DNA of 32,000 bases from Phycisphaera mikurensis NBRC 102666 (GTDB lineage: Bacteria; Planctomycetota; Phycisphaerae; Phycisphaerales; Phycisphaeraceae), in contig NC_017080.1 in the NCBI RefSeq assembly GCF_000284115.1, forward strand, positions 3,240,001 to 3,272,000, in the 5' to 3' direction. A program made the translations under genes and the position numbers. Of this stretch, positions 11,870 to 24,280 are shown piece by piece (within the stretch, counting starts at the first letter, position 1; each line of letters begins with the position of its first letter). The notes below the pieces were generated by a model, which was given only the letters and a program-made list of their open reading frames with translations, was not told where the DNA came from and searched no databases.

Positions 11870-12588
11870 GCGTTTTCCTCCAGAAACAGATCGACAAGCT
11901 GAAGAAGCAGGTCCTCGAGATCGGTGCCTGCTGCGAGGAGGCGCTGCGGGACGCCGTGGTGTCCGTGCTCGAGCGGGACCCCGACCTTGCCGAGCGCGTC
12001 ATCGCGCGCGACACGCGGATCGACCTGCTCGAGGTCGAGCTCGAGGAGGAGTGCCTGCACACCCTCGCGCTCCACCAGCCCGTCGCGTTCGACCTCCGCT
12101 ACGTCGTCGCCGTCCTCAAGATCAACAACGACCTCGAACGCATCGGCGACCACGCCAAGAGCATCGCCCAGCAGGCGATCTTCCTGTGCGACGAGCCCGC
12201 GATCGACCGGCCGCCCTTCGATCTCCGCGAGATGAGCGGCGTCACCGCGAAGATGCTGCGCAGCGCCCTGGATGCGTTGGTCGGCCTCGACGTCGACGAG
12301 GCGAAGGCGGTCCGCAAGCTCGACAAGACGGTCGATCGCATCAACGCCGCGATGTACGACGACGTCATCGCCGCCATGCGGAAGTCGCCTGAGCACATGG
12401 AGCAGCTGGTTCACTTCATGAACATCTCGCGGCAGCTCGAGCGAACCGCCGACCACGCCTGCAACGTCGCCAAGGACGTGCGGTACATGGCCGAGGGCGA
12501 GATCTTCCGGCACATGCGGAAGCGGCGGCAGGCCGCCGAGCAGGCCGAAGCGATCGCTGCGGCGGAAGCGGATCCGGCGGAAGACTGA
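11866..12588 (+). CDS. phoU: Phosphate signalling complex protein PhoU
   Basis: There are two PhoU repeats: 'RDTRIDLLEVELEEECLHTLALHQPVAFDLRYVVAVLKINNDLERIGDHA' and 'DKTVDRINAAMYDDV...FMNISRQLERTADHACNVA'. Confidence 0.9.
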   Translation: MSVFLQKQIDKLKKQVLEIGACCEEALRDAVVSVLERDPDLAERVIARDTRIDLLEVELEEECLHTLALHQPVAFDLRYVVAVLKINNDLERIGDHAKSIAQQAIFLCDEPAIDRPPFDLREMSGVTAKMLRSALDALVGLDVDEAKAVRKLDKTVDRINAAMYDDVIAAMRKSPEHMEQLVHFMNISRQLERTADHACNVAKDVRYMAEGEIFRHMRKRRQAAEQAEAIAAAEADPAED

Positions 12589-12742
12589 GCGGCCCCGAGG
12601 GCGGCGCCGGCGACGCGCCGCCCGGCCGCGGAGGGGAGGAACGCGCGACGGAGAAGCCACGCGCTTCCCGCAGCGTCCGCCTGCGCGCCCGCGGCGCTTC
12701 CGGACCCGCCCCGGCCGCGACGACGCTCGCGACTCGCAGAAA

Positions 12743-12792
12743 AGCCGCGGACCGTGGGCGTTCTCGACGAAAACACGCCACCGTCCGCGGCT
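12743..12792 (+). terminator. Strong GC hairpin downstream of phoU (possible U-tract-less terminator)
   Basis: agccgcggaccgtgggcgt (12743-12761) pairs with acgccaccgtccgcggct (12775-12792), with one bulge and one mismatch. The loop is 13 nt. No T-run follows. Confidence 0.3.
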
Positions 12793-12842
12793 CGGTCGCG
12801 GGCGCCGCACGGACACCCCGCAAGCGACCGCCGGCACGCCGC

Positions 12843-12870
12843 TTGACCCGCGGCGGCGACGAGGTATGAT
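12843..12870 (+). promoter_or_regulatory. Near-consensus sigma70-type promoter for the PEP-CTERM gene
   Basis: TTGACC (12843-12848), a 16-nt spacer, then TATGAT (12865-12870). It sits at the edge of the only markedly AT-rich stretch of the window. GGAG at 12911-12914 lies 8 nt before the ATG at 12923. Confidence 0.5.
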
Positions 12871-12878
12871 ACAAAAGC

Positions 12879-12903
12879 TGTTACACATTGTGCATTTGTC
12901 ACA
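12879..12903. promoter_or_regulatory. 25-bp dyad-symmetric candidate operator just downstream of the -10 element
   Basis: TGTTACACAT-N5-ATTTGTCACA. The outer 10 nt of each half match their reverse complement at 8 of 10 positions, and each end is itself a TGT-N-ACA unit. Confidence 0.35.
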
Positions 12904-12922
12904 TCCTTTCGGAGACCTGGAA

Positions 12923-13744
12923 ATGAAGATCGTCCCCACCACCCCCGCCCTCCTGCTCGCCGCCGCCACCGCCGTGCCCGCCGCGGCGGCCCCGGTGACG
13001 CTGGGTGACTTCACCCGCCTCGGAGCCGACACCGACGCCACCGTCTCGTTCAGCGGCAACACCGGCGGGACGGTGGCTTACAACGCCAACGGCGAGCCGC
13101 GGGTGGACGTCGGCATCGTGTCGTCGCTTACCGAGGCGGCCACCTTCACGCAGGTCGGCGACAAGATCACCTTCAGCGGCACCTACGACAGCATCACCAC
13201 GAGTGCTTCTTCGAACAACGCGTTTTACAACGGCTTCCTGTTCAACAGCGTCGCGGCGCCGCGCAACGGGAGCGGCGAGGTGCTGAAGGTCAACCTGGGC
13301 TACGGCTCCGACAGCGCCGGCGACGCCCGCTTCACGAGGATCGGCAACAACAGCGCCTTCGCCGGCGGCAGCGCCTTCGCCGGCGAGGTCATCTTCGAGG
13401 ACGACCAGAAGTTCGCCACGGGCAATGCGGTCGATTTCGTCTACACCCTCGAGCTGACGGGCATCGGGGCGGGCACCTCGGCTTCCTTCGACTACCAGTT
13501 CACCGCGGAGTTCGCCGCGACGGCGACGTCGGGTGCCGCCTCGATCACGGCGGCCGTCAACGGCGTGGGCACCGACACCGTCACCGCCGTGTACGCGGCG
13601 ACCAACAACGGCAGCTTCTTCAACCCGAACGACACGTGGACGCTCGGCAACGCCGCGGTCGACTTCACCCCCGTTCCCGAGCCCGCCTCGGCGCTCCTCC
13701 TCGCCGCCGGCGGCCTGGTGATGCTGCGTCGCCGCTCCGCCTGA
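12923..13744 (+). CDS. PEP-CTERM sorting-domain protein (secreted/surface, function unknown)
   Basis: Signal peptide 'MKIVPTTPALLLAAATAVPAAAAP'. The C-terminus 'VPEPASALLLAAGGLVMLRRRSA' is a PEP motif, a TM helix and a basic tail. The body is Gly/Ala/Thr/Asn-rich. Confidence 0.8.
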   Translation: MKIVPTTPALLLAAATAVPAAAAPVTLGDFTRLGADTDATVSFSGNTGGTVAYNANGEPRVDVGIVSSLTEAATFTQVGDKITFSGTYDSITTSASSNNAFYNGFLFNSVAAPRNGSGEVLKVNLGYGSDSAGDARFTRIGNNSAFAGGSAFAGEVIFEDDQKFATGNAVDFVYTLELTGIGAGTSASFDYQFTAEFAATATSGAASITAAVNGVGTDTVTAVYAATNNGSFFNPNDTWTLGNAAVDFTPVPEPASALLLAAGGLVMLRRRSA

Positions 13745-13787
13745 GCGTCGCGGCCTGCCGCGGCCGGACCGGCAAGACCCAGATCGC

Positions 13788-13820
13788 AAGAGGGGCCGTC
13801 TTCCGGGGGCGGCCCTTCTT
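13788..13820 (+). terminator. Hairpin after the PEP-CTERM gene (possible terminator)
   Basis: aagaggggccg (13788-13798) pairs with cggcccttctt (13810-13820), including one G-U pair. The loop is 11 nt. The hairpin starts 44 nt after the stop. Confidence 0.35.
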
Positions 13821-14001
13821 CATGCGCGGGGAAGCCGGAACACAGCAGGCGGCGCCGGACCTCTTCGCGTCCCGCCCCCCGCGGGGCAGGTCGGCGACCC
13901 ACCCCGCGGACCGGAGCCGCGACGCCCCGGCCGACCGCGACGCGTTCCGCACGCCCGGGGGCCGCTTCTCGCCACCACTTCCGCCGCTCCGACGATCCGG
14001 C

Positions 14002-14187
14002 TCACGCCGGCTCGGCGTGGCGCTCGGGCCTGGAATCCGGCACCGGATCCGGCTCCGGTGCGTGCTGCGGCTCCGGCCGCGCGGCCTCCGGGCGCGGGTC
14101 GCCGGCCGGCGTGACGAGAAGCCCGGACACGCCGGCGGCGAGGAGCAGCGCGCTTCCGGAGAGCTCCCGGAGCGGTGGGAGGTGCAT
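14002..14187 (-). CDS. Possible 61-aa single-TM small protein, translationally coupled to the upstream gene
   Basis: The ATG (14187-14185) overlaps the upstream TGA by 1 nt (TGATG), the same junction used between the two preceding genes. There is a hydrophobic segment 'SGSALLLAAGVSGLLV' followed by a Pro/Glu-rich tail. Chance ORFs are common at this GC content. Confidence 0.3.
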   Translation of the reverse strand: MHLPPLRELSGSALLLAAGVSGLLVTPAGDPRPEAARPEPQHAPEPDPVPDSRPERHAEPA

Positions 14188-16373
14188 CACTCGGTGGGAG
14201 CCCGCTGGCTGCCGGAGGCCGCGAGGGGGAAGACGTCCTCGTAGAAGGGCGTCGCGGCGGCGTGGTCGGCGGGGTCGTCGCTGAAGACGACGACGGCGTG
14301 GCCGTGCGGCGGAAGCTCGAAGCCGAGGTCGACGGCGCCGCCCTCCGCCCGCCGCGTCTCCGCCCCGGCGGCGTCCTCCCGCTGCACCGAGGCGAGCGCG
14401 TGCGCCGTCGCCGCGGTGGCGGCGTAGGCCTGCGGCCGATCGGTGAGGTTGTGGACGAGCCGGAACGCCCGCCCCGCTTCGGCGACCTCCAGCACGGCGA
14501 AGCGGTCGTCGCCCGGCAGGAGGTTCTCGGCGCGGTCAGCCGCGGGCCAGCCGGCGTGGTGAGACTCGAGGATCGCCCAGCGGGTGCTGCCGCCCGTGTA
14601 CGCCGTCCGCTCCTCCGCGGGGAGCGCCGCCTGGTCCGACAGCGTCAGCTGCACGGCGAAGTCGTCCGCGGGGCTGCCGGTGATGCCGAAGCGCTCGACG
14701 GAGACGAGCCCGCCGAAGGAGGAACCGCGGACCGCGAGCCGCAGGTCGCCGAAGGACCAGCGGTCCGCGGCGGTCTCCACGAAGTCGCGCCGCTCCCCGC
14801 TGACTTTCCGCCGGCCGGACGTCAGCATCACGCGGGCATCGGTGCCGTAGGCGTCGGTGTCCTCGTCCGCCCGCAGCTGCACGAGGCCGACCACCCGCTG
14901 CGGCGTCATCAGCCAGAGCTGCCGGCCGGTCCAGGGGATGCCGGGACCCCAGGGCCCATCCGCCCGCGACGAGGTGCGCTCCGACAGCGTGTAGGCGGTG
15001 GCGAGGGAGCCGAAGCCCGGGCGGGCCAGGGTGGCGGTCTCCTCGTCCTGCGCAAGAAAGCGGTGCTTCCTGCCGCGGGCGCGGTCGGTCTCCTCGCCGC
15101 GGGCGTGGCGGACGCGGACGGTGACCGCGTCCAGCGCCGCGTGCAGCGAGCCGTTGCGCAGCATCGGGCCGGTGAGGAAGGCCCCCACGAAGGTGCCCTT
15201 GCCGCACATCGCACCCTCCACGCCGGCCGGCTCCCCGGGGTGCTCGGGCGGCCGCACCTGCGGGTCGCGGCCCACGCCCACGAAGCCCCACGAGCCGAAC
15301 CGGCCGCGGGGGCCGGCGATCGACCGGTCGTGCACCACGAAGCCGTCGGGCGGAGCCAGCGGCTCGACCCCCGGGCGGAAGTGGATGGCTTGGAGCAGCG
15401 TGTACTCCGGGTGCGGCTCCGCCTCCACCTCCTGGCCGAAGAAGCGGTTGAGGCGATCGCCGAAGAGGTGGCTCTTGAGCAGCGCCGCGTGCCGGCCGCG
15501 GATGCCGTTGTAGCTGTGCTTGTAGGCGATGGAGGACGACTGCTCCTGGAAGCCGCTGGGCTCCACCGACAGCGGGACGTGCGGGAGCGTCGCTTCCATC
15601 GCGGCGTGCATCGTCGGCGAGCCCGAGAGCGTCCACCACCACGCCATCGCGGCGATGCTCACGTTGTGGTAGGTCGGGCATTCGGGGTGGAAGCCCACGT
15701 AGTGCGTGCCGCCGTCGCCGGTGACGGCGCGGGTCATGAGGCCGTCGAGGGCGGCGGCGGTCGCCCGCCGGACCTCCGCGTCGCCGAGCGCGACGCCGGC
15801 GAAGTGAGCCCCGAGCGTGAGGCGGATGTCGCCGTTGAGCCAGAGGTCGGCGAGCAGGCCCCCGCCGCGGAAGAGGGTCGCGCGGTCCTCGAGCACGAAG
15901 TCGGCGTGGGCCCGGGCCCCCGCGTCCCAGGCCTCCGCCACGCCGGCGACCGCCTCGGGGCGGTGCCGCTTGAGCAAGGCGTACGCGTACATCGTCTGGA
16001 AGACGCCGCTGATGTCGTTGAGCCGCTCGCCCGCGGCGTGCGCGTCGAAGCGCAGCCCCAGGAGTCGAAGCAGCCGGTCGAGCACCGCGTCGTCGCCGAG
16101 CCGCGGGCTCTGCGGGTGCAGGAAGGCGTACGCGGCGAGCAGGATCTCGTCGCCCTCCTTGAAGCCCCGGCCCGTGGCCTCGGCGTCCCCCGCTCGGACG
16201 CCGTCGAACACCCGCGCGAAGTGCGGGGCTTCGGCGTTCAGCGGCGGGAAGGCCAGCACGTCGCGGCCGGGCGCGGGCTCGAAGCGGGCGTGGGCGGGCA
16301 GCACGGAACCCAGCGCCGCGACGGCGAGGATCACGAGCCCGAGCGTGCGGGGGCGGCGTTGCTTCGGCTTCAT
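14187..16373 (-). CDS. Secreted 728-aa protein of unknown family (helix-rich N-half, beta-rich C-half; lyase/hydrolase-like architecture inferred only)
   Basis: Signal peptide 'MKPKQRRPRTLGLVILAVAALGSVLPAHA'. The start overlaps the upstream stop (TGATG at 16375-16371). Third-position GC bias is consistent throughout. I recognise no family motif. Confidence 0.7.
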   Translation of the reverse strand: MKPKQRRPRTLGLVILAVAALGSVLPAHARFEPAPGRDVLAFPPLNAEAPHFARVFDGVRAGDAEATGRGFKEGDEILLAAYAFLHPQSPRLGDDAVLDRLLRLLGLRFDAHAAGERLNDISGVFQTMYAYALLKRHRPEAVAGVAEAWDAGARAHADFVLEDRATLFRGGGLLADLWLNGDIRLTLGAHFAGVALGDAEVRRATAAALDGLMTRAVTGDGGTHYVGFHPECPTYHNVSIAAMAWWWTLSGSPTMHAAMEATLPHVPLSVEPSGFQEQSSSIAYKHSYNGIRGRHAALLKSHLFGDRLNRFFGQEVEAEPHPEYTLLQAIHFRPGVEPLAPPDGFVVHDRSIAGPRGRFGSWGFVGVGRDPQVRPPEHPGEPAGVEGAMCGKGTFVGAFLTGPMLRNGSLHAALDAVTVRVRHARGEETDRARGRKHRFLAQDEETATLARPGFGSLATAYTLSERTSSRADGPWGPGIPWTGRQLWLMTPQRVVGLVQLRADEDTDAYGTDARVMLTSGRRKVSGERRDFVETAADRWSFGDLRLAVRGSSFGGLVSVERFGITGSPADDFAVQLTLSDQAALPAEERTAYTGGSTRWAILESHHAGWPAADRAENLLPGDDRFAVLEVAEAGRAFRLVHNLTDRPQAYAATAATAHALASVQREDAAGAETRRAEGGAVDLGFELPPHGHAVVVFSDDPADHAAATPFYEDVFPLAASGSQRAPTE

Positions 16374-18946
16374 CAGGGCAGCTCGATCAGGGCACGGCCG
16401 TCGCGGAAGAGCCCCACGCGGGTCCGCCCGTCCTCGTGAGCGGTGAAGGAGATCCGGTCGGCCGGCCCCCGGGGCCAGGTCAGCTCGACGACCCCGGACG
16501 CGGGCGAGCCGACCTCCGGCAGCGCGTCCACGCCGTGCCGGTGCGGGAACAGCAGGACGCGGAAGGCCGCCCCCACGCCCCGGCGGGGCACGATCAGGCG
16601 GCGGTCGAGGCCGAAGGTCCGGCCGCTGGGCCCGTCGTAGGTGTCCTTCTTCTCGAACGTCTCGACGCGCGGGGCGGGTGTCGCGTCGAAGCGGTCCAAC
16701 GGCAGGGGGTCGCCGTGGAGGACGCGGACGAGCAGCAGCGGCTCGCCCTCCGCCGGCTTGTAGCGCAGCGTCCCGGGCACGCGGTCGATCGTGTCGCGGC
16801 CCAGGAGGACGTCGGTGTAGACGAGCGGCGGGGGGCCGTCGCCCGCGTCGGGCGCGAGCCCGCGCGGGTTGTCGTGCTTCGTGATCGACAGCGCCGTCAG
16901 GTCCGGCTCCAGCATCATCGTCCACGCGTGGAGCCGCTCGCGGCCGTCCTTCATCACGTCGTCCACGACCAAGGCGTAGTCGCGTTCGCCACGCACCAGG
17001 CCCATCGTGCGGAAGGCGTGCTCCACCGGGTTGTGGGCGACGCGGACCGTCCAGGGGTCCTCGTCCCACATGCCCGAGTCGCGGAGGTCGAAGCCCTCGA
17101 AGGCGGCGACCACGTTGGGGTGCGTCTCGTGCTCCCACGCCACGCCGCGGTCGACCCAGTCCTGCGCCCGCTCGCGGTACACGCCGAAGCGCTCGATGGC
17201 GTGCTTGGGTGCGTCGACCGGCTGCGCGTAAGCGGCCTTGGGCCAGCGCCAGGCGTAGGGGTACGCGAGGTCGGCGATCAGGAACGCGGCGTCTTCGGTG
17301 TGCTCCATCGCGATGACGTCGGCGGGCGCGGCGGGGTAGCCCTGCCCGCGGCCGTCGATCAGCACGAGGTTGTGGTGCCGCGACTCCACCGAGCGGAACC
17401 CGTCGGCGGACCAGGGCCGGCCGAGCGCGAACAGCTGGAAGCCGCCACGGTCGGCGTGGTCGTGGTTGGTGTTGAAGCCGTCGGTCCGCGCCGCCATCGG
17501 CATCACGGTCGCGTCGTCGGCCCAGCGGTCCCGCGCGATCATCAGGCCGCGGCCGGCGTCGGTGAACGTGGTGGTGAGGCCCAGCTCCGCGGCCAACGCC
17601 GCCGCCGCGCCCGGCTCGGCGTCGGCGTCGTCGGCGAAGACCAGCGCGTCGATCAGCGTGAAGTGGCCGCGGTCGCCGCGGTCCAGCAGCTGCGCGGCGA
17701 CCTCGGCGTAGATCGCGTCGACGAGCGGGTCGTCGGGGTAGAAGAACTTCCGCACCATCAGCTCGTGGTGCGTGGGCGCGTGCGAGCCGCCGTCGCCGGG
17801 GCTGTTCCACCGGTCGGTGCCGGGGATCATCGTCTGCAGCTGCCACCGCGGGATCGCCCGGTAGCGGTCCATCGCGATGAGGTTCTCGCCGCGGCGGGTC
17901 ATCGCCGCCAGCGCCGGCGACCCCCACAGCCAGCCGAAGCTGGTGTAGCCGACGGCTTCGGTGCTCACGCCGTTCTGGGTGTACCCGTGCGACAGGTAAT
18001 CCCGCATCATCTCGACGCCGACCTCGTACACGCGCGGGTCGTACCCCTCCTCGCCCTCGATCGCCAGCGACAGCAGCGTGAAGTGCTGGGCGACGTTGAT
18101 CCAGTTCCAGTCGCGGAGGTGCGGCGGCAGGTTCATGCCGAAGGCGAAGGCGCCGCGGGTGATCCGCGCGATCACCCGCCGCGTCGCGTCGCGGTCCGCT
18201 TCGGCCATGTGCGGGGCCGCGAGGTCGTAGGCGTAGCCCAGCTGCTGGTAGCCGAGCCGCCGGTGGTTGTGCTCGGGGTGGCGGTCGGGCCAGCGGCCGG
18301 CGTCGTCGCCGTACGGCCCGGCCCGCCAGGCCTCCACCAGCGGCTCCATCTTCCGCGCCCACTGGGCGATGGCCTCCGCCGCCCGCTCGCCCTGCGTCGC
18401 GTCCTCGCGGAGCAGCGCATCGAGGGCCGCGAGCTCGAGGTCGTACAGCACCGGCTCGCGGTTGTAGCCGCCGCGGCCGGCGGGCTCGGGCGCGGCGAGC
18501 AGCGCCTCGACGGCGGCGAAATCGCCGGCGATCAGCGCCTCCACCGCCCGGTGCGTCCAGCTGCCGGGGGCGCGGAAGCCGGCGTCGAGCCGCCGGGTCA
18601 TCAAGCCGCGGAGGCGGCGGCCCACGGCCGTTTCCTCCGAGCGGCGGCGGAGGTCCGGCAGGTCGTCGGGCCCGAAGAGGATCCGCGGGTGGACGCCGGG
18701 CGCGGGCACCGGGCCGAGGCGGTCGCGCGCGAGCCCGGTCTGGTCGTACGCGACCTCGACGGCCGGCGACACCGGATACCCCAGGTCCCGGTTCAGCACC
18801 GCCTCGCCGTCGAAGGGCCGGTCGGAGACCCGCTTCGCGGGGTCGGGCGTCGGCGTGGGCGCGGGCTCCGCCGCGGCGGCGGGGGCGAGCGAAGCGGCGG
18901 CCGCGAGCGTCGCGGAGAGGGCGAGCGGGCGGGAGCGTTTTCTCAT
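16373..18946 (-). CDS. Secreted heparinase II/III-like polysaccharide lyase family protein
   Basis: Signal peptide 'MRKRSRPLALSATLAAAASLAPAAAA'. 'HPRILFGPDDLPDLRRR' is an alginate-lyase/DUF4962-type N-domain opening. 'FNTNHDHADRGGFQLFALGRPWSADG...HHNLVLIDGRGQ' matches the heparinase II/III C-domain signature. Confidence 0.75.
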   Translation of the reverse strand: MRKRSRPLALSATLAAAASLAPAAAAEPAPTPTPDPAKRVSDRPFDGEAVLNRDLGYPVSPAVEVAYDQTGLARDRLGPVPAPGVHPRILFGPDDLPDLRRRSEETAVGRRLRGLMTRRLDAGFRAPGSWTHRAVEALIAGDFAAVEALLAAPEPAGRGGYNREPVLYDLELAALDALLREDATQGERAAEAIAQWARKMEPLVEAWRAGPYGDDAGRWPDRHPEHNHRRLGYQQLGYAYDLAAPHMAEADRDATRRVIARITRGAFAFGMNLPPHLRDWNWINVAQHFTLLSLAIEGEEGYDPRVYEVGVEMMRDYLSHGYTQNGVSTEAVGYTSFGWLWGSPALAAMTRRGENLIAMDRYRAIPRWQLQTMIPGTDRWNSPGDGGSHAPTHHELMVRKFFYPDDPLVDAIYAEVAAQLLDRGDRGHFTLIDALVFADDADAEPGAAAALAAELGLTTTFTDAGRGLMIARDRWADDATVMPMAARTDGFNTNHDHADRGGFQLFALGRPWSADGFRSVESRHHNLVLIDGRGQGYPAAPADVIAMEHTEDAAFLIADLAYPYAWRWPKAAYAQPVDAPKHAIERFGVYRERAQDWVDRGVAWEHETHPNVVAAFEGFDLRDSGMWDEDPWTVRVAHNPVEHAFRTMGLVRGERDYALVVDDVMKDGRERLHAWTMMLEPDLTALSITKHDNPRGLAPDAGDGPPPLVYTDVLLGRDTIDRVPGTLRYKPAEGEPLLLVRVLHGDPLPLDRFDATPAPRVETFEKKDTYDGPSGRTFGLDRRLIVPRRGVGAAFRVLLFPHRHGVDALPEVGSPASGVVELTWPRGPADRISFTAHEDGRTRVGLFRDGRALIELP

Positions 18947-19030
18947 GGGGAGCCCGGGAGCGGCCGTGCGGCCGGGGGAAGCGGCGGTCGCCCGCGCGTG
19001 CGGGACCGCCACGCGACGACGCGGACCGCC

Positions 19031-19942
19031 TCAGAAGCCGTTGGAGGTGTCGCTGCCGTTCCCGTTCCAGAAGCGGTTCCACTCGGCGCGATCGCCGAAG
19101 GCGGGCAGCGTGAAAGGGTGGCTGGCCTTGAAGGTCACCGACTCCTGGTCGCGGCTCTCGGCGTGGCCGTCGAGGAAGATGTAGTTCCCCGTGCCGCCCT
19201 GGTAGTAGAAGCGGTCGGTGGCGGGCTCGACGATCTGATCGCCCGCCCCGCCGTGGGGCTGCAGGGCCGGCGTCGAGCCGTTGCCGCTGCCCGGGGCGCC
19301 GCGGCCGTTGATCTCGGGGTGCCACCACAGCGTCCCGCCGCTCCAGGGCCGCGGCCAGCCGCCGGCGTCGGCGAAGAGCATCAGCTCGCTCGCCGAGTCG
19401 GGGCCGTCGATGGTCCTGAGGCTCCCGAAGGAGTCCCGCCCGCTGAAGAGGCGGCCGATCTGGATGTTGATCGCGAAGGTGCCGCGGTAGCCCGGGTTCG
19501 TCGGGGTCCGGCCGACGTCGCCGATGCCGAAGGCCGATTCCGCCTCCTGGCAGGTGAAAGCGCCGCCCTGCGACCAGTTGCCCAGCTCCTCGTTGTTCTT
19601 CTGGTAGCCCGGGGAGAGCGCCGGGTCCGTGCCGTCGAGGAAGGGCGCCCCCATGTACTCGGAGTAGACGTACCAGTTGGTCGGCTCCCCCGTGCCGTCG
19701 GGCTCGAGGCCCGGGCCGCGGTACTGGCCGTAGGCGATCGCGCCGTCGCGGTCGACGGCGTAGGTGTTCACCGCGATGCCCATCTGCCGCATCTGGCTCA
19801 GGCAGACCACGCCGCGGGCCGCCTTGCGGGCGGCCCCCAGCGCCGGCAGCAGGATCCCGATGAGCAGGGCGATGATGCTGATGACCACCAGCAGCTCGAT
19901 GAGCGTGAAGGCGCGACGGCGTGAGGGAGCGTTGGAGGACAT
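19031..19942 (-). CDS. Prepilin-type N-terminal cleavage/methylation domain protein, DUF1559-like
   Basis: '[48 protein letters not shown]' is a class-III signal plus the conserved planctomycete DUF1559 N-domain. The C-terminal region '[13 protein letters not shown]' is at the H-X9-DG position, with Gln where His is expected. Confidence 0.85.
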
Positions 19943-20017
19943 GACGAAAGCTGGAAGAGAGGGAGAATCGACCCCGGAGCGGGAGCGGGAGGCAGGGCGC
20001 GGGAAATGTTGCATGGA

Positions 20018-20046
20018 ATGTTACCTTTGTTACGGACGCGAGTCAA
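20018..20046 (-). promoter_or_regulatory. Candidate sigma70-type promoter of the pilin-like/lyase operon
   Basis: On the minus strand: TTGACT (20046-20041), a 17-nt spacer, then TAACAT (20023-20018). It lies about 75 nt upstream of the ATG at 19942, in a locally AT-enriched patch. Confidence 0.4.
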
Positions 20047-20170
20047 CCGTCCGACCGATCATGAACCGGCCCCATGCCCGAAGAACCCCCGTCTCGCTTG
20101 AAACCAGCCGCATCCGCTCCGAGACCGCTGGGTGCGGGCCCTACGCTGTCCCGCCGCCACCGCGCCCGCG

Positions 20171-20194
20171 GATGTGACAGCCCTGGGACACATC
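20171..20194. promoter_or_regulatory. Palindrome GATGTG-N12-CACATC in the divergent LacI/operon control region (candidate operator)
   Basis: The 6-bp arms are perfect, with partial inner complementarity (cag/ctg). It lies about 100 bp upstream of the lacI-family start. Confidence 0.3.
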
Positions 20195-20291
20195 GGTCCG
20201 GGCCCGCCGTCCTCCGCACTACGCTGCCGCGGACGCGGCGCTCCGCCCTCCCGCCGCGGCCTGTCTCCACCCCTCCCCCCGCCCTTCGCCG

Positions 20292-21311
20292 ATGAGCACC
20301 CGCTCCCCGACCGCCGCCGAAGTCGCCGCCCGTGCGGGCGTGAGCCGGATGACGGTCTACCGGGTGATGAAGGAGGACCCGCGGGTGTCTTCCTCCACCG
20401 CGACCTCGGTCCAGCGCGCCATCCGCGACCTCAACTACCTCCCGCCGGGCCAGCGGAACGCCGAAGCCGACGCCGCCGGCGCGGGCGGGCGGCACGGCCG
20501 GCTGGCCTTCCTGATCCCCGACGCCGACGTCGCCGCCCTGCGGACGGCCCTGACCGGCCGGCTGCTGCACGGGATCGACGCCGTCCTCACGCCCCGCTCG
20601 CTGGAGCTCTCGCTGACGCGGCTGCCGGCCCCCGGCCAGCTCCCCGGGCTCATCACGCGGCGGAAGGTCGACGGCGTCATCGTGCGTTCGAGCCACCGCG
20701 ACGAGTTCCCCGCCGAGCGGATCGAGCGGGTGCCCTGCGTCTGGCTCATGGAGAGCCGCCGGCCGGCGCCACCCGGCGACGTGGTGCACACCGACGACGT
20801 CGAGATCGGCCGCCTCGCCGCGGAGGCGTTCTGCCGCCGCGGCCGCCGGCACGTCGCGATCCTCAACGAGAACGCCGAGCACACGTCGTACAACGAGCGG
20901 GTGAGGGGCCTGCAGGTGTCGCTGTCCGGCGGGCCGGTGGCCACCGAGCCGGTCGACGCGGCCGGCCTGTCCGGCTCGACCCGGCAGGCCGCGGCGTGCA
21001 TCGACCGCCTGCTCGATCGGCACCCCGGCCTCGACGGCTTCTTCCTGCCCGGCACCGTGCCCTTCGTCAGCCTGCTCCACCAGGCACTCGCAGCCCGCGG
21101 ACGCGATCTCGGCGGCGTCACGATCGTGAGCGCCAGCTACGACGCCGACCTCAACGCCTCGCTGCGGCCGCGCCCGGTCCACATCGACGCCCGCCCCGAG
21201 CAGCTGGGCGAGGCCGCGGCCGAGCTGCTGCTCTGGCGGCTGTCCCACCCCGCCGCCGCCCGCCGCCGCGTCACGGTGGTGCCCGCGGTGATCGAGCCCG
21301 AGAACGATTGA
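20292..21311 (+). CDS. LacI-family transcriptional regulator
   Basis: N-terminal HTH 'PTAAEVAARAGVSRMTVYRVMKEDPRVSSSTATSVQRAIRDLNYLP', followed by a periplasmic-binding-protein-like sugar-binding core. Confidence 0.85.
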   Translation: MSTRSPTAAEVAARAGVSRMTVYRVMKEDPRVSSSTATSVQRAIRDLNYLPPGQRNAEADAAGAGGRHGRLAFLIPDADVAALRTALTGRLLHGIDAVLTPRSLELSLTRLPAPGQLPGLITRRKVDGVIVRSSHRDEFPAERIERVPCVWLMESRRPAPPGDVVHTDDVEIGRLAAEAFCRRGRRHVAILNENAEHTSYNERVRGLQVSLSGGPVATEPVDAAGLSGSTRQAAACIDRLLDRHPGLDGFFLPGTVPFVSLLHQALAARGRDLGGVTIVSASYDADLNASLRPRPVHIDARPEQLGEAAAELLLWRLSHPAAARRRVTVVPAVIEPEND

Positions 21312-21437
21312 GCCGCCGGGCCGCGGACCGCGGGCTCGGAGGGCTCCGCGGCCCGCCGGTCCGCGGGGCGAGACGCCGCCGCGCGGGAAGCCGGAACCGG
21401 CGGGTCGCGGCCGCGGCCGCTCTACGCTCGGTGGCCC

Positions 21438-23333
21438 ATGTCCCCGGACGCAGCCCCCACCGAACCCGTGCCCGCCGCCGCGCGCCAGCTGCTGGGGCTC
21501 GGCGGGGCGGGCGGGCAGGTCTCCCCGGGGCCCAAGCCGATCGCGACGCGGTCGCCGCGGCGGTCCGGCGAGGGCTCCGACTCGGTGGACCTCCCGCCCC
21601 GGCAGCTCTCGCTGACCGACTTCCTGGACCTCGAAACGCTGCAGGCGGTGCAGGACGGCTTCGTCTCGATCACCCGCCTGCAAGCGCAGATCCTCGACGC
21701 CGCCGGCCGGCCCGTCACCCGGCCCACCGACGCGAAGGTCCGCAGCGCGGCCGACGCGGCGACGGGCCTGCTGCTCGAGGAAGACGGCGGCGGCGAGCTC
21801 GCCGCCGGCGGCCGCTTCGTCGCGCCGATCGCCGTGGGGCCCGAGCGGCTGGGGTCGATCGTGATCGACGCGCCGCGGCACGCCAGCGACGCGGGCATCG
21901 GCCACGACGAGCTCGAGCGGCTCGCCGCCAGCCTCGGCCTGGGCCCCGAGGAGCGGCAGACGCTGTTCGAGGCCGCCGAGCCGGCCTTCGCCGCCAACCG
22001 CGGCGCCTCGGTGCAGTTCCTGTTCCTCATCGCCAACGCGATCACGCGGCTGTGCTACCAGGCGTGGGAGGGGCAGACACACGTGCAGGAGCTCGAGGCG
22101 CTGTACCGCGTGTCGACGGCCCTGGCCGCCGCCTCGGACGTGCAGGTCGTGCTCGACACCGCCGCGAAGTCGATCGCCGAGGTGCTCGACGCCGACGGCG
22201 TGGTCATCCGCCTGCTGCAGGAGGGGCCCGACGGGCCCGAGCTGGTCCGCCGCGCGAACCACGGGCTCTCCGCCTCCTACATCAACTCCGGCCAGCTGCT
22301 GGTGAACAAGAGCGAGCTCTACAGCAAGGTGATCCGAGGCGAGATCATCTACATCGAGGACCTGCCCGGCGACGCCCGGACCTACTACCCCGAGCTCGCC
22401 CGGGAGGAGGGGCTGGCCTCGATGCTGGCGCTGGGCCTCGCCGACCACGACCAGCCGATCGGCTCGATCCAGGTGTACACGGTGGAGACCCGGCGCTTCA
22501 GCCGCGACCTCGTGCGGCTGGCCCGCGCCGTCTCTCAGCTGGTGAGCGCCGCGATCTCCAAGACCCGCCTGGAGCAGGACCGCAACCGGAACTCGGCGAT
22601 GGTCCGCCAGATGCAGCTCGCCGCCGGCGTGCAGCGGAGGATGCTGCCCCAGCGGCTGCCCGAGCTGGCGGGCTTCGACGTGGCCGCCCGGTACATCCCC
22701 AGCTTCCAGCTCTCCGGCGACTTCTACGACTTCGTCCGCCTCGGCGACGGGAACGTGGGCTTCGCCATCGGCGACGTCGCCGGCAAGGGCATCGCGGCGT
22801 CGCTGCTCATGGCCTCGGTGCGGGCCTCGCTGCGGGCGTACGCCCACGACCTCTACCACCTCGACGAGGTGATCCGGCGGGTGAATCTTGCGCTGTGCCG
22901 CGACACCCTCGACGGCGAGTTTGCCACCCTGTGGTACGGCGTGCTCGACCCGACCGCCCGCCGCTTGACCTACTGCAACGCCGGCCACGAGCCGCCGATC
23001 CTGGTGCGTGACGGCCACATCATCCCGCTGGACGCCGGCGGCATGATCGTCGGGGTCGACCGCGACCAGGACTACGACAAGGGCGTCGTCGACCTGCAGC
23101 CCCGCGACCTGCTGCTGCTCTACACCGACGGCCTGCCCGACGCGATGAACGCCGAGCAGAAGCGATTCGGCCGGGTGGCGATGGAGGCGATGCTCCGCGA
23201 GATCGCAAACCGCGAGGGGCCACCGCGGCCCGCCGCCGAGGGCCTGCGGGAGATCGAGACCCACCTCCGGAACCACGCCGGCGCCCGCCGCGGCAGCGAC
23301 GACACCACGCTGGTGCTGCTGCGCTGCACCTGA
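21438..23333 (+). CDS. PocR-like sensor / GAF / PP2C (SpoIIE-RsbU type) serine phosphatase
   Basis: The N-terminus 'LETLQAVQDGFVSITRLQAQILDAAGRPVT...FVAPIAVGPERLGSIVI' is PocR-like. A GAF-like middle region follows. The C-terminus 'QRRMLPQ...YIPSFQLSGDFYDF...FAIGDVAGKGIAASLLM...LLLYTDGL...GSDDTTLVLL' carries PP2C motifs. Confidence 0.8.
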   Translation: MSPDAAPTEPVPAAARQLLGLGGAGGQVSPGPKPIATRSPRRSGEGSDSVDLPPRQLSLTDFLDLETLQAVQDGFVSITRLQAQILDAAGRPVTRPTDAKVRSAADAATGLLLEEDGGGELAAGGRFVAPIAVGPERLGSIVIDAPRHASDAGIGHDELERLAASLGLGPEERQTLFEAAEPAFAANRGASVQFLFLIANAITRLCYQAWEGQTHVQELEALYRVSTALAAASDVQVVLDTAAKSIAEVLDADGVVIRLLQEGPDGPELVRRANHGLSASYINSGQLLVNKSELYSKVIRGEIIYIEDLPGDARTYYPELAREEGLASMLALGLADHDQPIGSIQVYTVETRRFSRDLVRLARAVSQLVSAAISKTRLEQDRNRNSAMVRQMQLAAGVQRRMLPQRLPELAGFDVAARYIPSFQLSGDFYDFVRLGDGNVGFAIGDVAGKGIAASLLMASVRASLRAYAHDLYHLDEVIRRVNLALCRDTLDGEFATLWYGVLDPTARRLTYCNAGHEPPILVRDGHIIPLDAGGMIVGVDRDQDYDKGVVDLQPRDLLLLYTDGLPDAMNAEQKRFGRVAMEAMLREIANREGPPRPAAEGLREIETHLRNHAGARRGSDDTTLVLLRCT

Positions 23334-23440
23334 CGCGAGACCGCGGCGGCGGACCTTTGCGTCACCCGCGTCGTCCGCGGCTCCTCTCGGCCCGGGAGGG
23401 GCTCCTCGAGGCGTTCGGATTGTCTCTCAAGCGTCCGATG

Positions 23441-23618
23441 CCCGGGTGTCACGCCCTTGGGGGGTGGCCGCATCCCGACGACCTCCCGCGTTCGCCACCC
23501 CGCAAGCGGCGTGGCACCCGAGACCTCCGCTCGTTCGCGGCTCCCGGGTGCCACGCCCCTTGGGGGGTGGCCGAATCCCGACGGCCTCCCGCGCTCGCCA
23601 CCCCGCAAGCGGCGTGGC
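23441..23618. repeat. Two tandem REP-like hairpin units (period 102 bp) between convergent genes
   Basis: Unit 1 has arms 23443-23468 / 23494-23520: 26 bp with one mismatch and one bulge, and a 25-nt loop. Unit 2 has arms 23545-23571 / 23597-23618. The units are near-identical. The right arm of unit 1 can also pair with the left arm of unit 2. Confidence 0.7.
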
Positions 23619-23623
23619 GGGCG

Positions 23624-24280
23624 TCAGGTCGCGGGCCGGATCCCGAAGACGAAGATCCCGCACCACCGGTTGCCGACGCGGTCGGTGAGGGGGAAGCCGC
23701 GGACCGAGGGCAACTCCACCATGAGCCCCGCCGACAGCGCTTTCTCATGCCACACGCCCGCGTCGTGCACGGCCGTCTCCTCGTCGGCGGTGAACAGCAC
23801 GAGCAGGAGGCCGGCGTGGCGGACGCCCCGGTCGCGGGCCAGCTTCCGGGCGTCGGCCAGCAGCGTCCGCCCCAGCTCGGCGGCGTACCGCTTGGCGAAG
23901 CCCTCCTCGCCGAACTGCGCGGTGGTCTTCACCTCCAGCCAGAACGCCTCCTCGGGCGCGACCCCCGCCCCGCCGGGGTCGCCGAAGAGCGTTCCGGCCA
24001 GCTCGCCGTCGAGCACCGGCCGGCCGCCCGGCGTCAGCACCACGTCGCACCGCTCGCCCTCGCTGCGCTTGCGCCTCGACCACCCGCCGGGGAGCTTCTG
24101 CTCCGGCCACACGCCCCACCGCGCGTCCGCCGCCCGCAGCGCCGAATGCAGGAAGGGGTGCAGGTCGATCTCGCGGAGCACGTCGAGCCCGGCGACCGCC
24201 TGCTCGGCGTCGAGGGCGGCGGCGTCGGCCAGGAGTCCCGCCTCGATGGCGTCCGCGACGTCGGAGGGGGAGGGCGTCAT
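23624..24280 (-). CDS. Hypothetical protein with a PD-(D/E)XK nuclease-like motif pattern
   Basis: The ORF has consistent GC3 bias. 'REIDLHP' (E), 'ERCDVVLTP' (D) and 'FWLEVKT' (E-x-K) occur in the order and spacing of the restriction-endonuclease-like fold. The start was taken at ATG 24280 (MTPSPSD...). No partner gene is present. Confidence 0.5.
   Translation of the reverse strand: MTPSPSDVADAIEAGLLADAAALDAEQAVAGLDVLREIDLHPFLHSALRAADARWGVWPEQKLPGGWSRRKRSEGERCDVVLTPGGRPVLDGELAGTLFGDPGGAGVAPEEAFWLEVKTTAQFGEEGFAKRYAAELGRTLLADARKLARDRGVRHAGLLLVLFTADEETAVHDAGVWHEKALSAGLMVELPSVRGFPLTDRVGNRWCGIFVFGIRPAT

What the first reader, a model, noticed from the sequence alone, without database searches (positions are those of the whole stretch)
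14002..21311. A prepilin-like (DUF1559-type) gene heads a tightly coupled secreted-lyase operon with a divergent LacI regulator
Seen in sequence:
- One minus-strand chain runs 19942 to 14002. It starts with a protein carrying a type IV pilin-style N-terminus ([17 protein letters not shown]).
- 84 bp later comes a signal-peptide heparinase II/III-like lyase.
- A 1-nt TGATG overlap leads into a 728-aa signal-peptide protein of no family I recognise.
- A second TGATG overlap leads into a 61-aa TM ORF.
- A LacI-family gene diverges from a shared control region that holds a TTGACT-N17-TAACAT promoter.

Established knowledge: the N-terminal motif is the prepilin peptidase/methylation class-III signal, and LacI regulators normally control sugar-catabolic operons.

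Inference: the pilin-like protein is co-expressed with the enzymes and works with them. Possible roles are a substrate-capturing fibre subunit, a pseudopilus component for their export, or glycan uptake. I know of no described mechanism linking DUF1559-type proteins to CAZyme operons.
Basis: partly seen in the sequence, partly recalled or inferred. Interest (0 to 1): 0.72.

Follow-up and report, generated by a model that had tools for sequence, protein, structure and literature searches.

The report
Pilin-like gene in glycan-lyase operon
In the marine bacterium Phycisphaera mikurensis, a pilin-like gene of a large family of unknown function sits with two secreted lyase-fold enzymes, a surface-anchored protein and a sugar-type repressor, and related bacteria keep this grouping, which gives a concrete setting for testing what these pilin-like proteins do.

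Summary
The window is Phycisphaera mikurensis. On the minus strand lie a prepilin-type gene (19942-19031), an 84-bp gap, an 857-aa gene (18946-16373), a TGATG overlap and a 728-aa gene (16373-14187). A LacI gene diverges from a TTGACT-N17-TAACAT site.

Corrections:
- The 857-aa protein matches no Pfam family. It is a distant heparinase II/III-clan relative by fold and by an invariant H-x-H-x-D motif.
- The "unrecognised" 728-aa protein is a second lyase-fold protein.
- The 61-aa ORF is probably not a gene.

All five examined orthologues of the pilin-like gene (42-66% identity) lie within a few genes of a member of the 857-aa family, in different gene orders. They usually also have the LacI orthologue, a PEP-CTERM protein and a sodium:solute symporter. 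In a sample of 76 DUF1559-type genes from PVC genomes, downstream genes were not obviously rich in CAZymes. The link therefore belongs to this subfamily, perhaps to Phycisphaerae.

Best reading: a LacI-repressed locus for an acidic glycan. The pilin-like and PEP-CTERM proteins act as dedicated envelope accessories, in substrate capture or enzyme export. Their role is unproven.

The parts
12843..12870 (+). Promoter-like site TTGACC-N16-TATGAT upstream of the PEP-CTERM gene
   Evidence: one of 3 sites in 12500-21500, against 0.2 expected from shuffles.
12879..12903 (+). Two TGTNACA heptamers (TGTTACA, TGTCACA) 18 bp apart, just downstream of the -10 element. Candidate operator.
   Evidence: the whole 32-kb window holds only 3 TGTNACA sites, and all 3 lie in the two control regions of this cluster; naive binomial P about 1e-5. 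The same motif occurs in the control regions of L009, L001 and L002.
12923..13744 (+). PEP-CTERM-anchored secreted protein of 273 aa, convergent with the operon.
   Evidence: TIGR02595 scores 19.4 bits against a cut-off of 16. It is 34-38% identical (E about 1e-28) to the PEP-CTERM proteins inside the L002 and L012 clusters. HMM hits also occur in L009, L010 and L093. It is annotated BAM04887.1.
14002..14187 (-). 61-aa ORF that overlaps the 728-aa gene's stop (TGATG). Probably not a gene.
   Evidence: One search shows the junction. Codon-position GC is 0.87/0.60/0.89, against about 0.7/0.53/0.97 for the real genes. No tblastn hit in related loci. Singleton cluster under one accession only.
14187..16373 (-). 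728-aa secreted protein with an alpha-helical domain plus a beta-sandwich, the polysaccharide-lyase fold. It belongs to a rare family with no Pfam, NCBIfam or PDB sequence match.
   Evidence: No Pfam, NCBIfam or PDB sequence hit. AlphaFold model pLDDT 86.6. Foldseek against PDB: PL39 6jp4 E 4.8e-13, then heparinase II, Atu3025, PL17 and PL8 lyases. Only 19 homologues among 5.8 billion sequences, some carrying CBM6/CBM35 or T9SS domains. UniRef calls it 'Alginate lyase domain-containing protein'.
16373..18946 (-). 857-aa secreted lyase-like protein: an alpha/alpha toroid (about residues 93-454) plus a beta-sandwich. It is a distant relative of the heparinase II/III clan.
   Evidence: No Pfam hit at E<=10. 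Model pLDDT 88.5. Foldseek: PL15 exoHep 6lja E 7e-18, then PL35, PL15, PL39, PL17, PL21, PL12, PL40 and PL33 lyases and dermatan sulfate epimerase. Family profile against PDB: 8khv E 2.2e-4, Atu3025 2.4e-3, heparinase II 4e-3. H495 aligns with Atu3025 H531. H495, H497, Y334, N281 and the H86-P87-R88 motif are invariant in 52 homologues. The family holds 535 clusters at E<=1e-30.
18947..19030 (-). 84-bp gap between the pilin-like gene and the lyase-like gene
   Evidence: No promoter-like or terminator-like site. Folding z-score +0.35.
19031..19942 (-). 303-aa prepilin-type protein, a divergent relative of DUF1559 / H-X9-DG proteins. It is the first gene of the chain.
   Evidence: PF07963 scores 32.5 bits. 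Ala at -1, Phe at +1 and Glu at +5 are read directly from the sequence. Full-length matches of 30-35% identity to DUF1559 proteins. Orthologues of 42-66% identity exist. D258-G259-H260 and C47 are invariant, and the His of H-X9-DG is replaced by Tyr or Phe. PDB matches cover only the N-terminal helix.
20018..20046 (-). Promoter-like site TTGACT-N17-TAACAT. Two GTAACA hexamers (20019-20024, 20028-20033) overlap the -10 element.
   Evidence: All 4 GTWACA matches in the window lie in this site or in the control region of the PEP-CTERM gene.
20173..20179 (.). Third TGTNACA heptamer (TGTGACA), 113 bp upstream of the LacI start codon
20292..21311 (+). LacI-family regulator of 339 aa, divergent from the operon
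   Evidence: PF00356 E 6.7e-12 and PF13377. Orthologues of 47-58% identity sit next to the cluster in L001, L002 and L009, and one of 39% in L010. Annotated BAM04892.1.

Best explanation
This is a LacI-repressed utilisation locus for an acidic, uronate-containing glycan in Phycisphaera mikurensis.

One promoter (TTGACT-N17-TAACAT) probably drives three genes: the pilin-like gene, an 857-aa enzyme and a 728-aa enzyme. Both enzymes have Sec signal peptides and the toroid-plus-beta-sandwich fold of beta-eliminating polysaccharide lyases. They most likely cut the same polymer at different linkages or in different modes.

A convergent gene with its own promoter encodes a PEP-CTERM surface protein that belongs to the same conserved set. 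Both promoters carry TGTNACA elements, which are candidate operators for the LacI protein.

The pilin-like protein is inferred to be a dedicated envelope accessory of this locus. Prepilin peptidase would process it. It would then be anchored by, or polymerised through, its N-terminal helix. Its subfamily-specific C-domain would bind the glycan or its fragments and pass them on toward a transporter, as the class-III-signal sugar-binding proteins of the archaeal bindosome do. In relatives that transporter is a sodium:solute symporter encoded in the cluster.

Shown here: gene structure, protein folds, conserved motifs and conserved gene neighbourhood. Inferred: lyase activity, the substrate class, a single transcript, the LacI operator, and every role assigned to the pilin-like and PEP-CTERM proteins.
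For: Anatomy and identity:
- Gene anatomy was verified. The organism is P. mikurensis.

The two enzymes:
- Both models are confident (pLDDT 88.5 and 86.6). Their 40-50 best PDB matches are almost all polysaccharide lyases.
- The 857-aa family keeps an invariant H-x-H-x-D motif. Its first His aligns with the His mutated in the Atu3025 H531A substrate complex (3afl). The family also keeps invariant Y334 and N281.
- Homologues of the 857-aa protein sit beside GH88, an ABC sugar importer and an AraC regulator in Paenibacillus. In Verrucomicrobiota they sit among GH95, GH43, GH29 and GH2 genes. One metagenome cluster adds GH28, beta-helix proteins and acetyl/GDSL esterases.
- The two enzyme families co-localise in about 10 of 14 non-redundant loci, across phyla.

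The pilin-like gene:
- The five orthologous loci are the window, L002, L009, L008 and L010. Each has a member of the 857-aa family within a few genes, in different orders.
- In neighbourhoods of 76 other DUF1559-type genes, that family hit only 1 of 1029 called genes.

Other conserved partners:
- LacI orthologues sit next to the cluster in four loci.
- PEP-CTERM homologues occur in or near the cluster in the window, L002, L009, L010 and L012.
- An SSF symporter is in the cluster in L002, L009, L010, L012 and L001.

Control regions:
- Two of only three promoter-like sites in 9 kb precede the two transcription units.
- All 3 TGTNACA sites of the window lie in the two control regions. The motif recurs in the orthologous control regions.

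Precedents:
- Archaeal bindosome (PMC3047682).
- Pilin-like MUL2 genes, which the paper links to mucin uptake in Akkermansia (PMC13174399).
Against: - There are no expression data, so a single transcript and LacI control are unproven.
- No classical LacI-type palindrome was found in the control region. TGTNACA enrichment may partly reflect the lower G+C of intergenic DNA.
- The window cluster has no transporter, and none was found in the 32 kb.
- Neither enzyme reaches any curated family threshold. The same fold includes a non-lyase, dermatan sulfate epimerase.
- One related MAG (GCA_038747275.1) encodes the pilin-like, 857-aa-type and 728-aa-type orthologues on three different contigs.
- Verrucomicrobial and Paenibacillus clusters with the 857-aa family have no pilin-like gene, so the enzymes do not need it in general.
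- The P. mikurensis paralogue P0150 is coupled to a 948-aa protein with two beta-lactamase domains, not to a CAZyme. This fits an enzyme-linked role, such as export or display, at least as well as a glycan-binding role.
- There is no structure or ligand evidence for the pilin-like C-domain.
Confidence: 0.55

Rival explanations
1. The pilin-like protein is a cargo-specific pseudopilin. It would join a type II secretion or type IV pilus-like machine and help move or dock the co-encoded enzymes, and perhaps the PEP-CTERM protein, across or onto the outer membrane. It would not bind glycan.
For: - Both enzymes carry only Sec signals (ORF translations). In a diderm such as this they need a further step to leave the periplasm.
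- The N-terminus resembles GspG and type IV pilins.
- The P. mikurensis paralogue P0150 overlaps the start of a 948-aa hydrolase with two beta-lactamase domains. The common denominator is therefore a large secreted enzyme, not a glycan.
- A metagenome cluster (L097) places three short pseudopilin-like genes, one of them GspH-like, ahead of GH28, esterase, 728-aa-type and 857-aa-type genes.
Against: - From my own knowledge, characterised T2SS use one fixed set of five pseudopilins for all cargo. No cargo-specific pseudopilin is described in the papers I could search.
- Half of the sampled DUF1559-type genes had no co-directional downstream gene, and few of the rest had an enzyme there.
- The same enzyme families occur without any pilin-like gene in Verrucomicrobiota and Paenibacillus.
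- In relatives the pilin-like gene lies close to an SSF symporter, which fits an uptake role better.
Confidence: 0.22
2. The adjacency has no functional meaning. DUF1559-type genes are so numerous in these genomes that one simply happens to sit upstream of a lyase operon and is carried along by inherited synteny.
For: - DUF1559 is the largest paralogue family in a planctomycete, with 68 copies in Planctopirus limnophila (PMC10632474).
- The PVC-wide sample shows no obvious CAZyme enrichment downstream.
- One MAG has the genes dispersed over three contigs.
Against: - The linkage survives rearrangement. Gene order differs in the window, L002, L009, L010 and L008, yet each keeps the pilin-like orthologue within a few genes of a member of the 857-aa family.
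- The background frequency of that family was 1 in 1029 genes.
- In the MAG with dispersed genes, the pilin-like orthologue sits in another cluster with 857-aa-type and 728-aa-type paralogues and a sulfatase.
- The orthologue group is distinct. E-values drop from 1e-42 to 1e-22 at its edge.
Confidence: 0.1
3. The locus remodels the cell's own exopolysaccharide or matrix rather than feeding on an external glycan. The lyase-fold proteins would trim self-made polymer. The PEP-CTERM and pilin-like proteins would be matrix or surface components.
For: - From my own knowledge, PEP-CTERM/exosortase systems are associated with exopolysaccharide production and flocculation. The window protein weakly resembles the flocculation-associated PepA (E 8e-4, far below its cut-off).
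- From my own knowledge, lyases such as AlgL act inside polymer-biosynthesis pathways.
- The window cluster has no transporter.
Against: - The regulator is LacI-type.
- In relatives the cluster has an SSF symporter and GFO/IDH/MocA plus DUF6807 genes.
- Other contexts include GH88 with an ABC importer and sugar-acid catabolic genes (MR_MLE, RraA-like, SDR).
- No glycosyltransferase or polymer-export gene lies next to the cluster in the window.
Confidence: 0.1

Closest known systems
Polysaccharide lyases with an (alpha/alpha)n toroid plus beta-sandwich: PL15 (Atu3025, exoHep), PL21 heparinase II, PL12 heparinase III, PL17, PL35, PL39 and PL8
   Same: Both enzymes have the same two-domain fold. 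The 857-aa family shares the HPR, YD[WF] and H-x-H-x-D motifs, and its H495 aligns with Atu3025 H531. A homologue in Paenibacillus has the GH88 neighbour expected downstream of a lyase.
   Different: Identity to any solved lyase is only 8-14%. Neither protein hits a Pfam model, and neither reaches an NCBIfam threshold. The two families are not detectably related to each other by profile comparison. Activity and substrate are unknown.
DUF1559 (PF07596) / prepilin-type H-X9-DG proteins of Planctomycetota and other PVC bacteria
   Same: It has the prepilin-type N-terminus, a similar size, a C-terminal DGH motif, and full-length similarity of 30-35% identity to proteins that carry PF07596.
   Different: It scores below the Pfam cut-off (17.3 against 23.3 bits). 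Tyr or Phe replaces the eponymous His. It forms a small, distinct orthologue group tied to one set of enzymes. The family as sampled is mostly stand-alone or followed by other paralogues. The literature I could search gives the family no function.
Archaeal bindosome: Sulfolobus sugar-binding proteins with class III signal peptides, assembled by the Bas system
   Same: A pilin-type signal is attached to a large non-pilin domain, and the gene is tied to sugar acquisition (PMC3047682).
   Different: It is archaeal and coupled to ABC transporters, and ligand binding was shown experimentally. Here the host is a diderm bacterium, the nearby transporter in relatives is an SSF symporter, and binding is untested. 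There is no sequence relationship beyond the signal.
Akkermansia mucin-utilisation locus MUL2 (a pilin-like protein plus a PilM protein)
   Same: It is a PVC bacterium, and the paper ties pilin-like components to import of a complex glycan (PMC13174399).
   Different: The proteins are different (an archaeal-type pilin fold and PilM). MUL2 is not embedded in an enzyme operon, and no LacI or PEP-CTERM partner is reported.
Bacteroidota polysaccharide utilisation loci (SusC/SusD type)
   Same: Both are regulated clusters that combine secreted enzymes, surface accessory proteins and, in relatives of this locus, a transporter for one glycan.
   Different: No SusC/SusD pair was seen among the called genes of the window or the related loci (Pfam columns). 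The accessory proteins here are prepilin-type and PEP-CTERM-anchored. CAZyme clusters of Planctomycetota have not been functionally characterised (PMC11131199).

Membership tests
Prepilin-type (class III signal) proteins: type IV pilins and T2SS pseudopilins | Match to the N-terminal cleavage/methylation domain above the curated cut-off | tested here: met
   PF07963 scores 32.5 bits against 21.2. TIGR02532 scores 25.5 against 16.3.
Prepilin-type (class III signal) proteins: type IV pilins and T2SS pseudopilins | Short basic leader, small residue at -1, Phe at +1, Glu at +5, then a hydrophobic helix of about 20 residues | tested here: met
   The sequence reads [11 protein letters not shown]|[24 protein letters not shown]. 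Position -1 is Ala here and Ala or Gly in orthologues. F12 and E16 are invariant.
Prepilin-type (class III signal) proteins: type IV pilins and T2SS pseudopilins | Processing by a prepilin peptidase and assembly into a filament by a T2SS or T4P machine | not testable with these tools
   No machinery genes lie in the 32-kb window. The rest of the genome was not examined.
DUF1559 (PF07596, SBP_bac_10) | Pfam gathering score over the C-terminal domain | tested here: not met
   It scores 17.3 bits against 23.3, and only residues 37-63 match profile positions 2-28 of 268. It is nevertheless 30-35% identical over 86-94% of its length to proteins that carry PF07596. It is a divergent relative, not a member at threshold.
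Prepilin-type H-X9-DG proteins (model number TIGR04294 recalled from memory) | C-terminal His-X9-Asp-Gly motif | tested here: not met
   The orthologue group has [YF]-X9-DG ([14 protein letters not shown]). More distant paralogues keep H-X9-DG. No hit to such a model appeared at E<=1.
Heparinase II/III-like lyases (Pfam Hepar_II_III_C, DUF4962; CAZy PL12/15/17/21 clan) | Match to the curated Pfam or NCBIfam models | tested here: not met
   The 857-aa protein has no Pfam hit at E<=10. NCBIfam HepB scores 23.6 bits against a cut-off of 600.
Heparinase II/III-like lyases (Pfam Hepar_II_III_C, DUF4962; CAZy PL12/15/17/21 clan) | (alpha/alpha)n toroid plus beta-sandwich fold | tested here: met
   857-aa protein: 40 best PDB matches with E 7e-18 to 1e-10, all from this clan. 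728-aa protein: PL39, PL21, PL15, PL17 and PL8 lyases with E down to 4.8e-13.
Heparinase II/III-like lyases (Pfam Hepar_II_III_C, DUF4962; CAZy PL12/15/17/21 clan) | Catalytic His in the H-x-H-x-D motif, plus Tyr and Asn/His in the toroid domain | tested here: inconclusive
   H495, H497 and D499 align with Atu3025 H531-S-H533-G-D535 and with the NHQHQD stretch of heparinase II. H495 and H497 are invariant. Y334 and N281 are invariant, but I assign them to the catalytic Tyr and Asn/His only from spacing that I recall from the literature. For the 728-aa protein only conserved N180, Y225 and Y235 are noted, with no alignment to a known site.
Heparinase II/III-like lyases (Pfam Hepar_II_III_C, DUF4962; CAZy PL12/15/17/21 clan) | Beta-elimination activity on a uronate-containing polysaccharide | not testable with these tools
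   This needs recombinant enzyme and an A235 or product assay. Membership of an existing CAZy PL family could not be checked here.
LacI/GalR transcription factors | N-terminal LacI HTH plus a periplasmic-binding-protein-like effector domain | tested here: met
   PF00356 scores 45.4 bits against 27. PF13377 scores 27.7 against 26.5.
LacI/GalR transcription factors | Palindromic operator in the regulated promoter | tested here: inconclusive
   No long palindrome was found. Short self-complementary TGTNACA elements are confined to the two control regions. Binding was not tested.
PEP-CTERM / exosortase-sorted proteins | C-terminal PEP motif, transmembrane segment and basic tail, with TIGR02595 above its cut-off | tested here: met
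   The C-terminus reads VPEPASALLLAAGGLVMLRRRSA. TIGR02595 scores 19.4 bits against 16. The Pfam model scores just below its cut-off, 17.2 against 20.7.
Bacteroidota-type PUL | Adjacent SusC-like TonB-dependent transporter and SusD-like lipoprotein | tested here: not met
   No such domains were found in the window genes scanned or in the called genes of related loci (Pfam columns).

The most novel reading that the evidence does not exclude
Divergent DUF1559-type pilin-like proteins, together with small PEP-CTERM-anchored proteins, form substrate-specific modules. Each module would plug into a shared type IV filament or T2SS-like machine to capture a given polymer, or dock its enzymes, and feed the products to a symporter. 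This would be the Phycisphaerae/PVC counterpart of SusC/D and a bacterial analogue of the archaeal bindosome. It would explain why these genomes carry dozens of such paralogues.

The recurring triad of PEP-CTERM protein, pilin-like protein and large secreted enzyme is the hint. It occurs here, in L002 and in L010. In the P. mikurensis paralogue locus L093 it occurs with a beta-lactamase-domain hydrolase.
Probability: 0.2. Interest if true: 0.85.

Novelty: new variant of a known kind. Interest (0 to 1): 0.6.

Why it matters
DUF1559-type pilin-like proteins are the largest paralogue family in planctomycetes, and no function is known for them (PMC10632474). CAZyme clusters of this phylum have not been functionally characterised (PMC11131199).

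This locus ties one small, distinct pilin-like subfamily to a defined set of partners. These are two lyase-fold enzymes, a LacI regulator, a PEP-CTERM protein and, in relatives, a symporter. P. mikurensis exists as a cultured strain (NBRC 102666, my own knowledge). The question of what these pilin-like proteins do therefore becomes testable through induction, deletion, localisation and binding assays.

The locus also flags two enzyme families as candidate new polysaccharide lyase families. The 857-aa family holds 535 clusters at 50% identity (E<=1e-30). The 728-aa family has only 19 known homologues.

Tried and rejected
- Pfam, NCBIfam and PDB sequence searches of the two enzymes gave nothing at curated thresholds. 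Only fold search and a family profile were informative.
- A profile-profile comparison of the two enzyme families gave 1% probability. I do not treat them as detectable paralogues.
- A search for a classical LacI palindrome in five orthologous control regions found none. I report the short TGTNACA motif only as a candidate.
- The 84-bp gap and the region after the 728-aa gene fold no better than shuffled sequence. No Rfam family matches in 12000-24500. I found no attenuator, terminator or RNA element.
- I considered the 61-aa ORF as a remnant PEP-CTERM tail of the 728-aa protein. The resemblance is 9 residues only, and homologues of the 728-aa protein have no such tail. Rejected.
- I tested family-wide enrichment of CAZymes downstream of DUF1559-type genes. 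The sample was 76 loci, with 58 downstream proteins and 120 control proteins. No clear enrichment appeared. The genes were called with my own simple caller, and only the 25 commonest families per set are visible. The test is therefore coarse.
- Literature searches for any described link between DUF1559 or pilin-like proteins and CAZymes in Planctomycetota, Phycisphaerae or Kiritimatiellota returned nothing relevant.
- I could not model the pilin-like C-domain because both structure-prediction jobs went to the enzymes.

Full report
**Source and anatomy**

The 857-aa protein is 100% identical to a hypothetical protein of Phycisphaera mikurensis on a 3.80-Mb contig. The window has about 73% G+C.

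- The pilin-like gene runs 19942-19031 (303 aa).
- An 84-bp gap follows.
- The 857-aa gene runs 18946-16373.
- A TGATG overlap leads to the 728-aa gene (16373-14187).
- A second TGATG overlap leads to a 61-aa ORF (14187-14002).
- The LacI gene is divergent at 20292-21311.
- TTGACT-N17-TAACAT lies at 20046-20018.

Codon-position G+C marks the three large genes as coding (GC3 0.96-0.98). The 61-aa ORF has values of 0.87/0.60/0.89. It has no homologue in related loci. It is a singleton cluster found under one accession only, and it is absent from the consecutively numbered BAM04887/BAM04888 pair. I regard it as probably non-coding.

**The pilin-like protein**

It passes the curated thresholds for the prepilin cleavage/methylation domain. 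It shows Ala at -1, Phe at +1 and Glu at +5.

It falls below the DUF1559 Pfam cut-off (17.3 against 23.3 bits). Tyr or Phe replaces the His of the H-X9-DG motif, while DGH stays invariant. It still aligns end to end at 30-35% identity with proteins that carry DUF1559. It is therefore a divergent relative.

It belongs to a small orthologue group of six relatives at 42-66% identity. Outside that group E-values jump from 1e-42 to 1e-22. Matches to solved structures cover only the N-terminal helix.

**The two enzymes**

Neither enzyme hits Pfam at E<=10, and neither reaches an NCBIfam cut-off.

The 857-aa protein:
- The AlphaFold model, built on 52 homologues, has pLDDT 88.5. It shows an alpha/alpha toroid followed by a beta-sandwich.
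- Foldseek returns only polysaccharide lyases and dermatan sulfate epimerase as strong hits, from PL15 exoHep at E 7e-18 downward.
- A family profile weakly reaches PL35, PL15 and heparinase II sequences (E 2e-4 to 4e-3). It aligns the HPR, YD[WF] and H-x-H-x-D motifs, and H495 falls on Atu3025 H531.
- H495, H497, Y334 and N281 are invariant across the family.

"Heparinase II/III-like" is therefore right at the clan level but not at the family level.

The 728-aa protein:
- Its model (pLDDT 86.6) has the same two-domain architecture.
- It matches PL39, PL21, PL15, PL17 and PL8 lyases, with E down to 4.8e-13.
- It has no sequence match to any solved structure.
- It shows no detectable profile similarity to the 857-aa family.

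UniRef already labels the two proteins "Heparinase II N-terminal domain-containing" and "Alginate lyase domain-containing". The 857-aa family holds 535 clusters at 50% identity with E<=1e-30. The 728-aa family has only 19 detected homologues, some carrying CBM6/CBM35 or T9SS domains.

**Conserved neighbourhood**

| Locus | Source | Arrangement |
|---|---|---|
| L002/L003 | metagenome | LacI, then divergently PEP-CTERM, pilin-like (66%), 285 aa, SSF symporter, 857-type (56%), 728-type (54%) |
| L009 | Planctomycetota MAG | GFO/IDH, DUF6807, LacI, then divergently pilin-like, 857-type, 728-type, SSF-Kelch/NANM symporter; a PEP-CTERM homologue lies 4 kb away |
| L010 | metagenome | SSF, LacI, 857-type paralogue with Laminin_G_3, PEP-CTERM, pilin-like (42%) |
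| L008 | MAG GCA_038747275.1 | two pilin-like genes, a sulfatase, two 728-type paralogues, one 857-type paralogue |
| L001, L011 | same MAG as L008 | the closest 857-type gene (with LacI) and the closest 728-type gene lie on other contigs |

All five pilin-like orthologues examined therefore lie within a few genes of a member of the 857-aa family. In the neighbourhoods of 76 other DUF1559-type genes, that family hit 1 of 1029 called genes.

The two enzyme families also travel together without any pilin-like gene. One case is Rubellicoccus, next to a PEP-CTERM homologue, an SSF symporter and sugar-acid catabolic genes. Several metagenome loci show the same pairing, including one from a human gut sample. 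The pair co-localises in about 10 of 14 non-redundant loci.

The window's own PEP-CTERM gene (12923-13744, +) is 34-38% identical to the PEP-CTERM proteins in the L002 and Rubellicoccus clusters. It passes TIGR02595.

**Substrate hints**

Relatives of the 857-aa family have these neighbours:
- GH88 with an ABC importer in Paenibacillus.
- GH95, GH43, GH29 and GH2 in Verrucomicrobiota.
- GH28, beta-helix proteins and acetyl/GDSL esterases in L097.

These point to a complex acidic, uronate-containing glycan. The substrate cannot be named.

**Regulation**

Only three promoter-like sites occur in 12500-21500, against 0.2 expected. Two of them precede the two transcription units. No promoter-like or terminator-like site lies inside the chain, and the 84-bp gap has no special structure.

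No long palindrome was found. All three TGTNACA heptamers of the 32-kb window lie in the two control regions. So do all four GTWACA matches, which are three distinct sites because one is counted on both strands. The naive probability is about 1e-5. TGTNACA also recurs in the control regions of L009, L001 and L002. It is a candidate operator and nothing more.

**Is the link general?**

A genome scan returned 80 loci with DUF1559-type genes, and 76 were usable.
- Only 38 had a co-directional gene within 300 bp downstream.
- Among 58 first and second downstream proteins, the commonest families were DUF1559 (6) and N_methyl (5). Two were Laminin_G_3, one was GH29 and one was Hepar_II_III_C.
- Among 120 distant control genes, 4 were sulfatases and 3 were DUF1559.

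There is no clear family-wide enrichment. Among the roughly ten Phycisphaerae loci in the sample, four have Laminin_G_3 or heparinase-type proteins in the same directional cluster, and one of those also has an SSF symporter.

A P. mikurensis paralogue (P0150) sits behind two PEP-CTERM genes. It overlaps a 948-aa protein with two beta-lactamase domains. The recurring module is a PEP-CTERM protein, a pilin-like protein and a large secreted enzyme.

**Interpretation**

The locus-level reading is well supported. It is a LacI-controlled utilisation locus for an acidic glycan with two lyase-fold enzymes.

A functional tie between the pilin-like gene and this locus is supported by rearrangement-resistant linkage. 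Its role is inferred. I favour a bindosome-like substrate-binding or hand-over function, on the precedent of PMC3047682. The pilin-like MUL2 genes of Akkermansia are a second precedent (PMC13174399). I place a cargo-specific pseudopilin role close behind, because of the beta-lactamase-coupled paralogue and the L097 pseudopilin trio.

The papers I could search give DUF1559 no function and describe no characterised planctomycetal CAZyme cluster.

**Verdict**

The locus is a new variant of a known kind, a glycan-utilisation locus with prepilin-type and PEP-CTERM accessory proteins, and it contains two candidate new lyase families. Interest 0.6.

Noticed in passing
window 648-5167 (+): Two further CAZyme genes lie 9-18 kb from the cluster. 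One is a GH10 domain protein (648-2570). The other is a GH78-type alpha-L-rhamnosidase (2669-5167). Whether they act on the same glycan is unknown.
   Followed up: no
window 6119-7272 (+): A DDE_3 transposase (E 1e-22) marks an insertion sequence between the CAZyme genes and the phosphate genes.
   Followed up: no
window 7370-12588 (+): A phosphate-regulon block lies directly upstream of the PEP-CTERM gene. It holds a porin O/P, an OmpR-type response regulator, a PAS histidine kinase and PhoU.
   Followed up: no
window 21438-23333 (+): A 631-aa PocR-GAF-SpoIIE (PP2C) phosphatase gene starts 126 bp after the LacI gene on the same strand. It may be co-transcribed with the regulator.
   Followed up: no
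window 23454-23618: A 62-nt sequence is repeated at 103-bp spacing (95% identity) and overlaps a 30-nt inverted repeat (90% complementary) in intergenic DNA. It may be a small repetitive or palindromic element.
   Followed up: partly
L093 8226-13695 (P. mikurensis, second assembly): The paralogous pilin-like gene P0150 sits in a row with two PEP-CTERM proteins ahead of it and a 948-aa protein with two beta-lactamase domains after it, with a 4-nt overlap. This is the same triad with a different enzyme class.
   Followed up: partly
L097 3917-21842 (metagenome; L099 and L106 are the same): Three consecutive short N-methyl pseudopilin-like genes, one of them GspH-like, precede GH28, a beta-helix protein, two 728-type proteins, an acetyl esterase, a GDSL esterase and an 857-type protein.
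   Followed up: partly
L009 16043-18859; L010 1542-4253; L012 18370-20811: The SSF symporters in these clusters are 810-940 aa and carry an N-terminal Kelch/NANM (mutarotase-like) beta-propeller fused to the transporter. This fusion is unusual.
   Followed up: no
L019, L023, L047, L048, L066, L067, L083 and others: In many Planctomycetia loci, the first co-directional gene after the DUF1559-type gene is a small ORF of about 90-185 aa. The identity of these ORFs was not examined.
   Followed up: no
L105 3343-8233 (human gut metagenome contig): A 728-type gene, split in two by the caller, lies convergent with an 857-type gene on a human gut metagenome contig. The enzyme pair is therefore not restricted to aquatic PVC bacteria.
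   Followed up: no
L002 4504-5361: The 285-aa protein between the pilin-like gene and the SSF symporter is weakly similar to the PEP-CTERM protein of the same cluster (25% identity over 167 aa, E 7e-5) but has no PEP-CTERM tail.
   Followed up: partly
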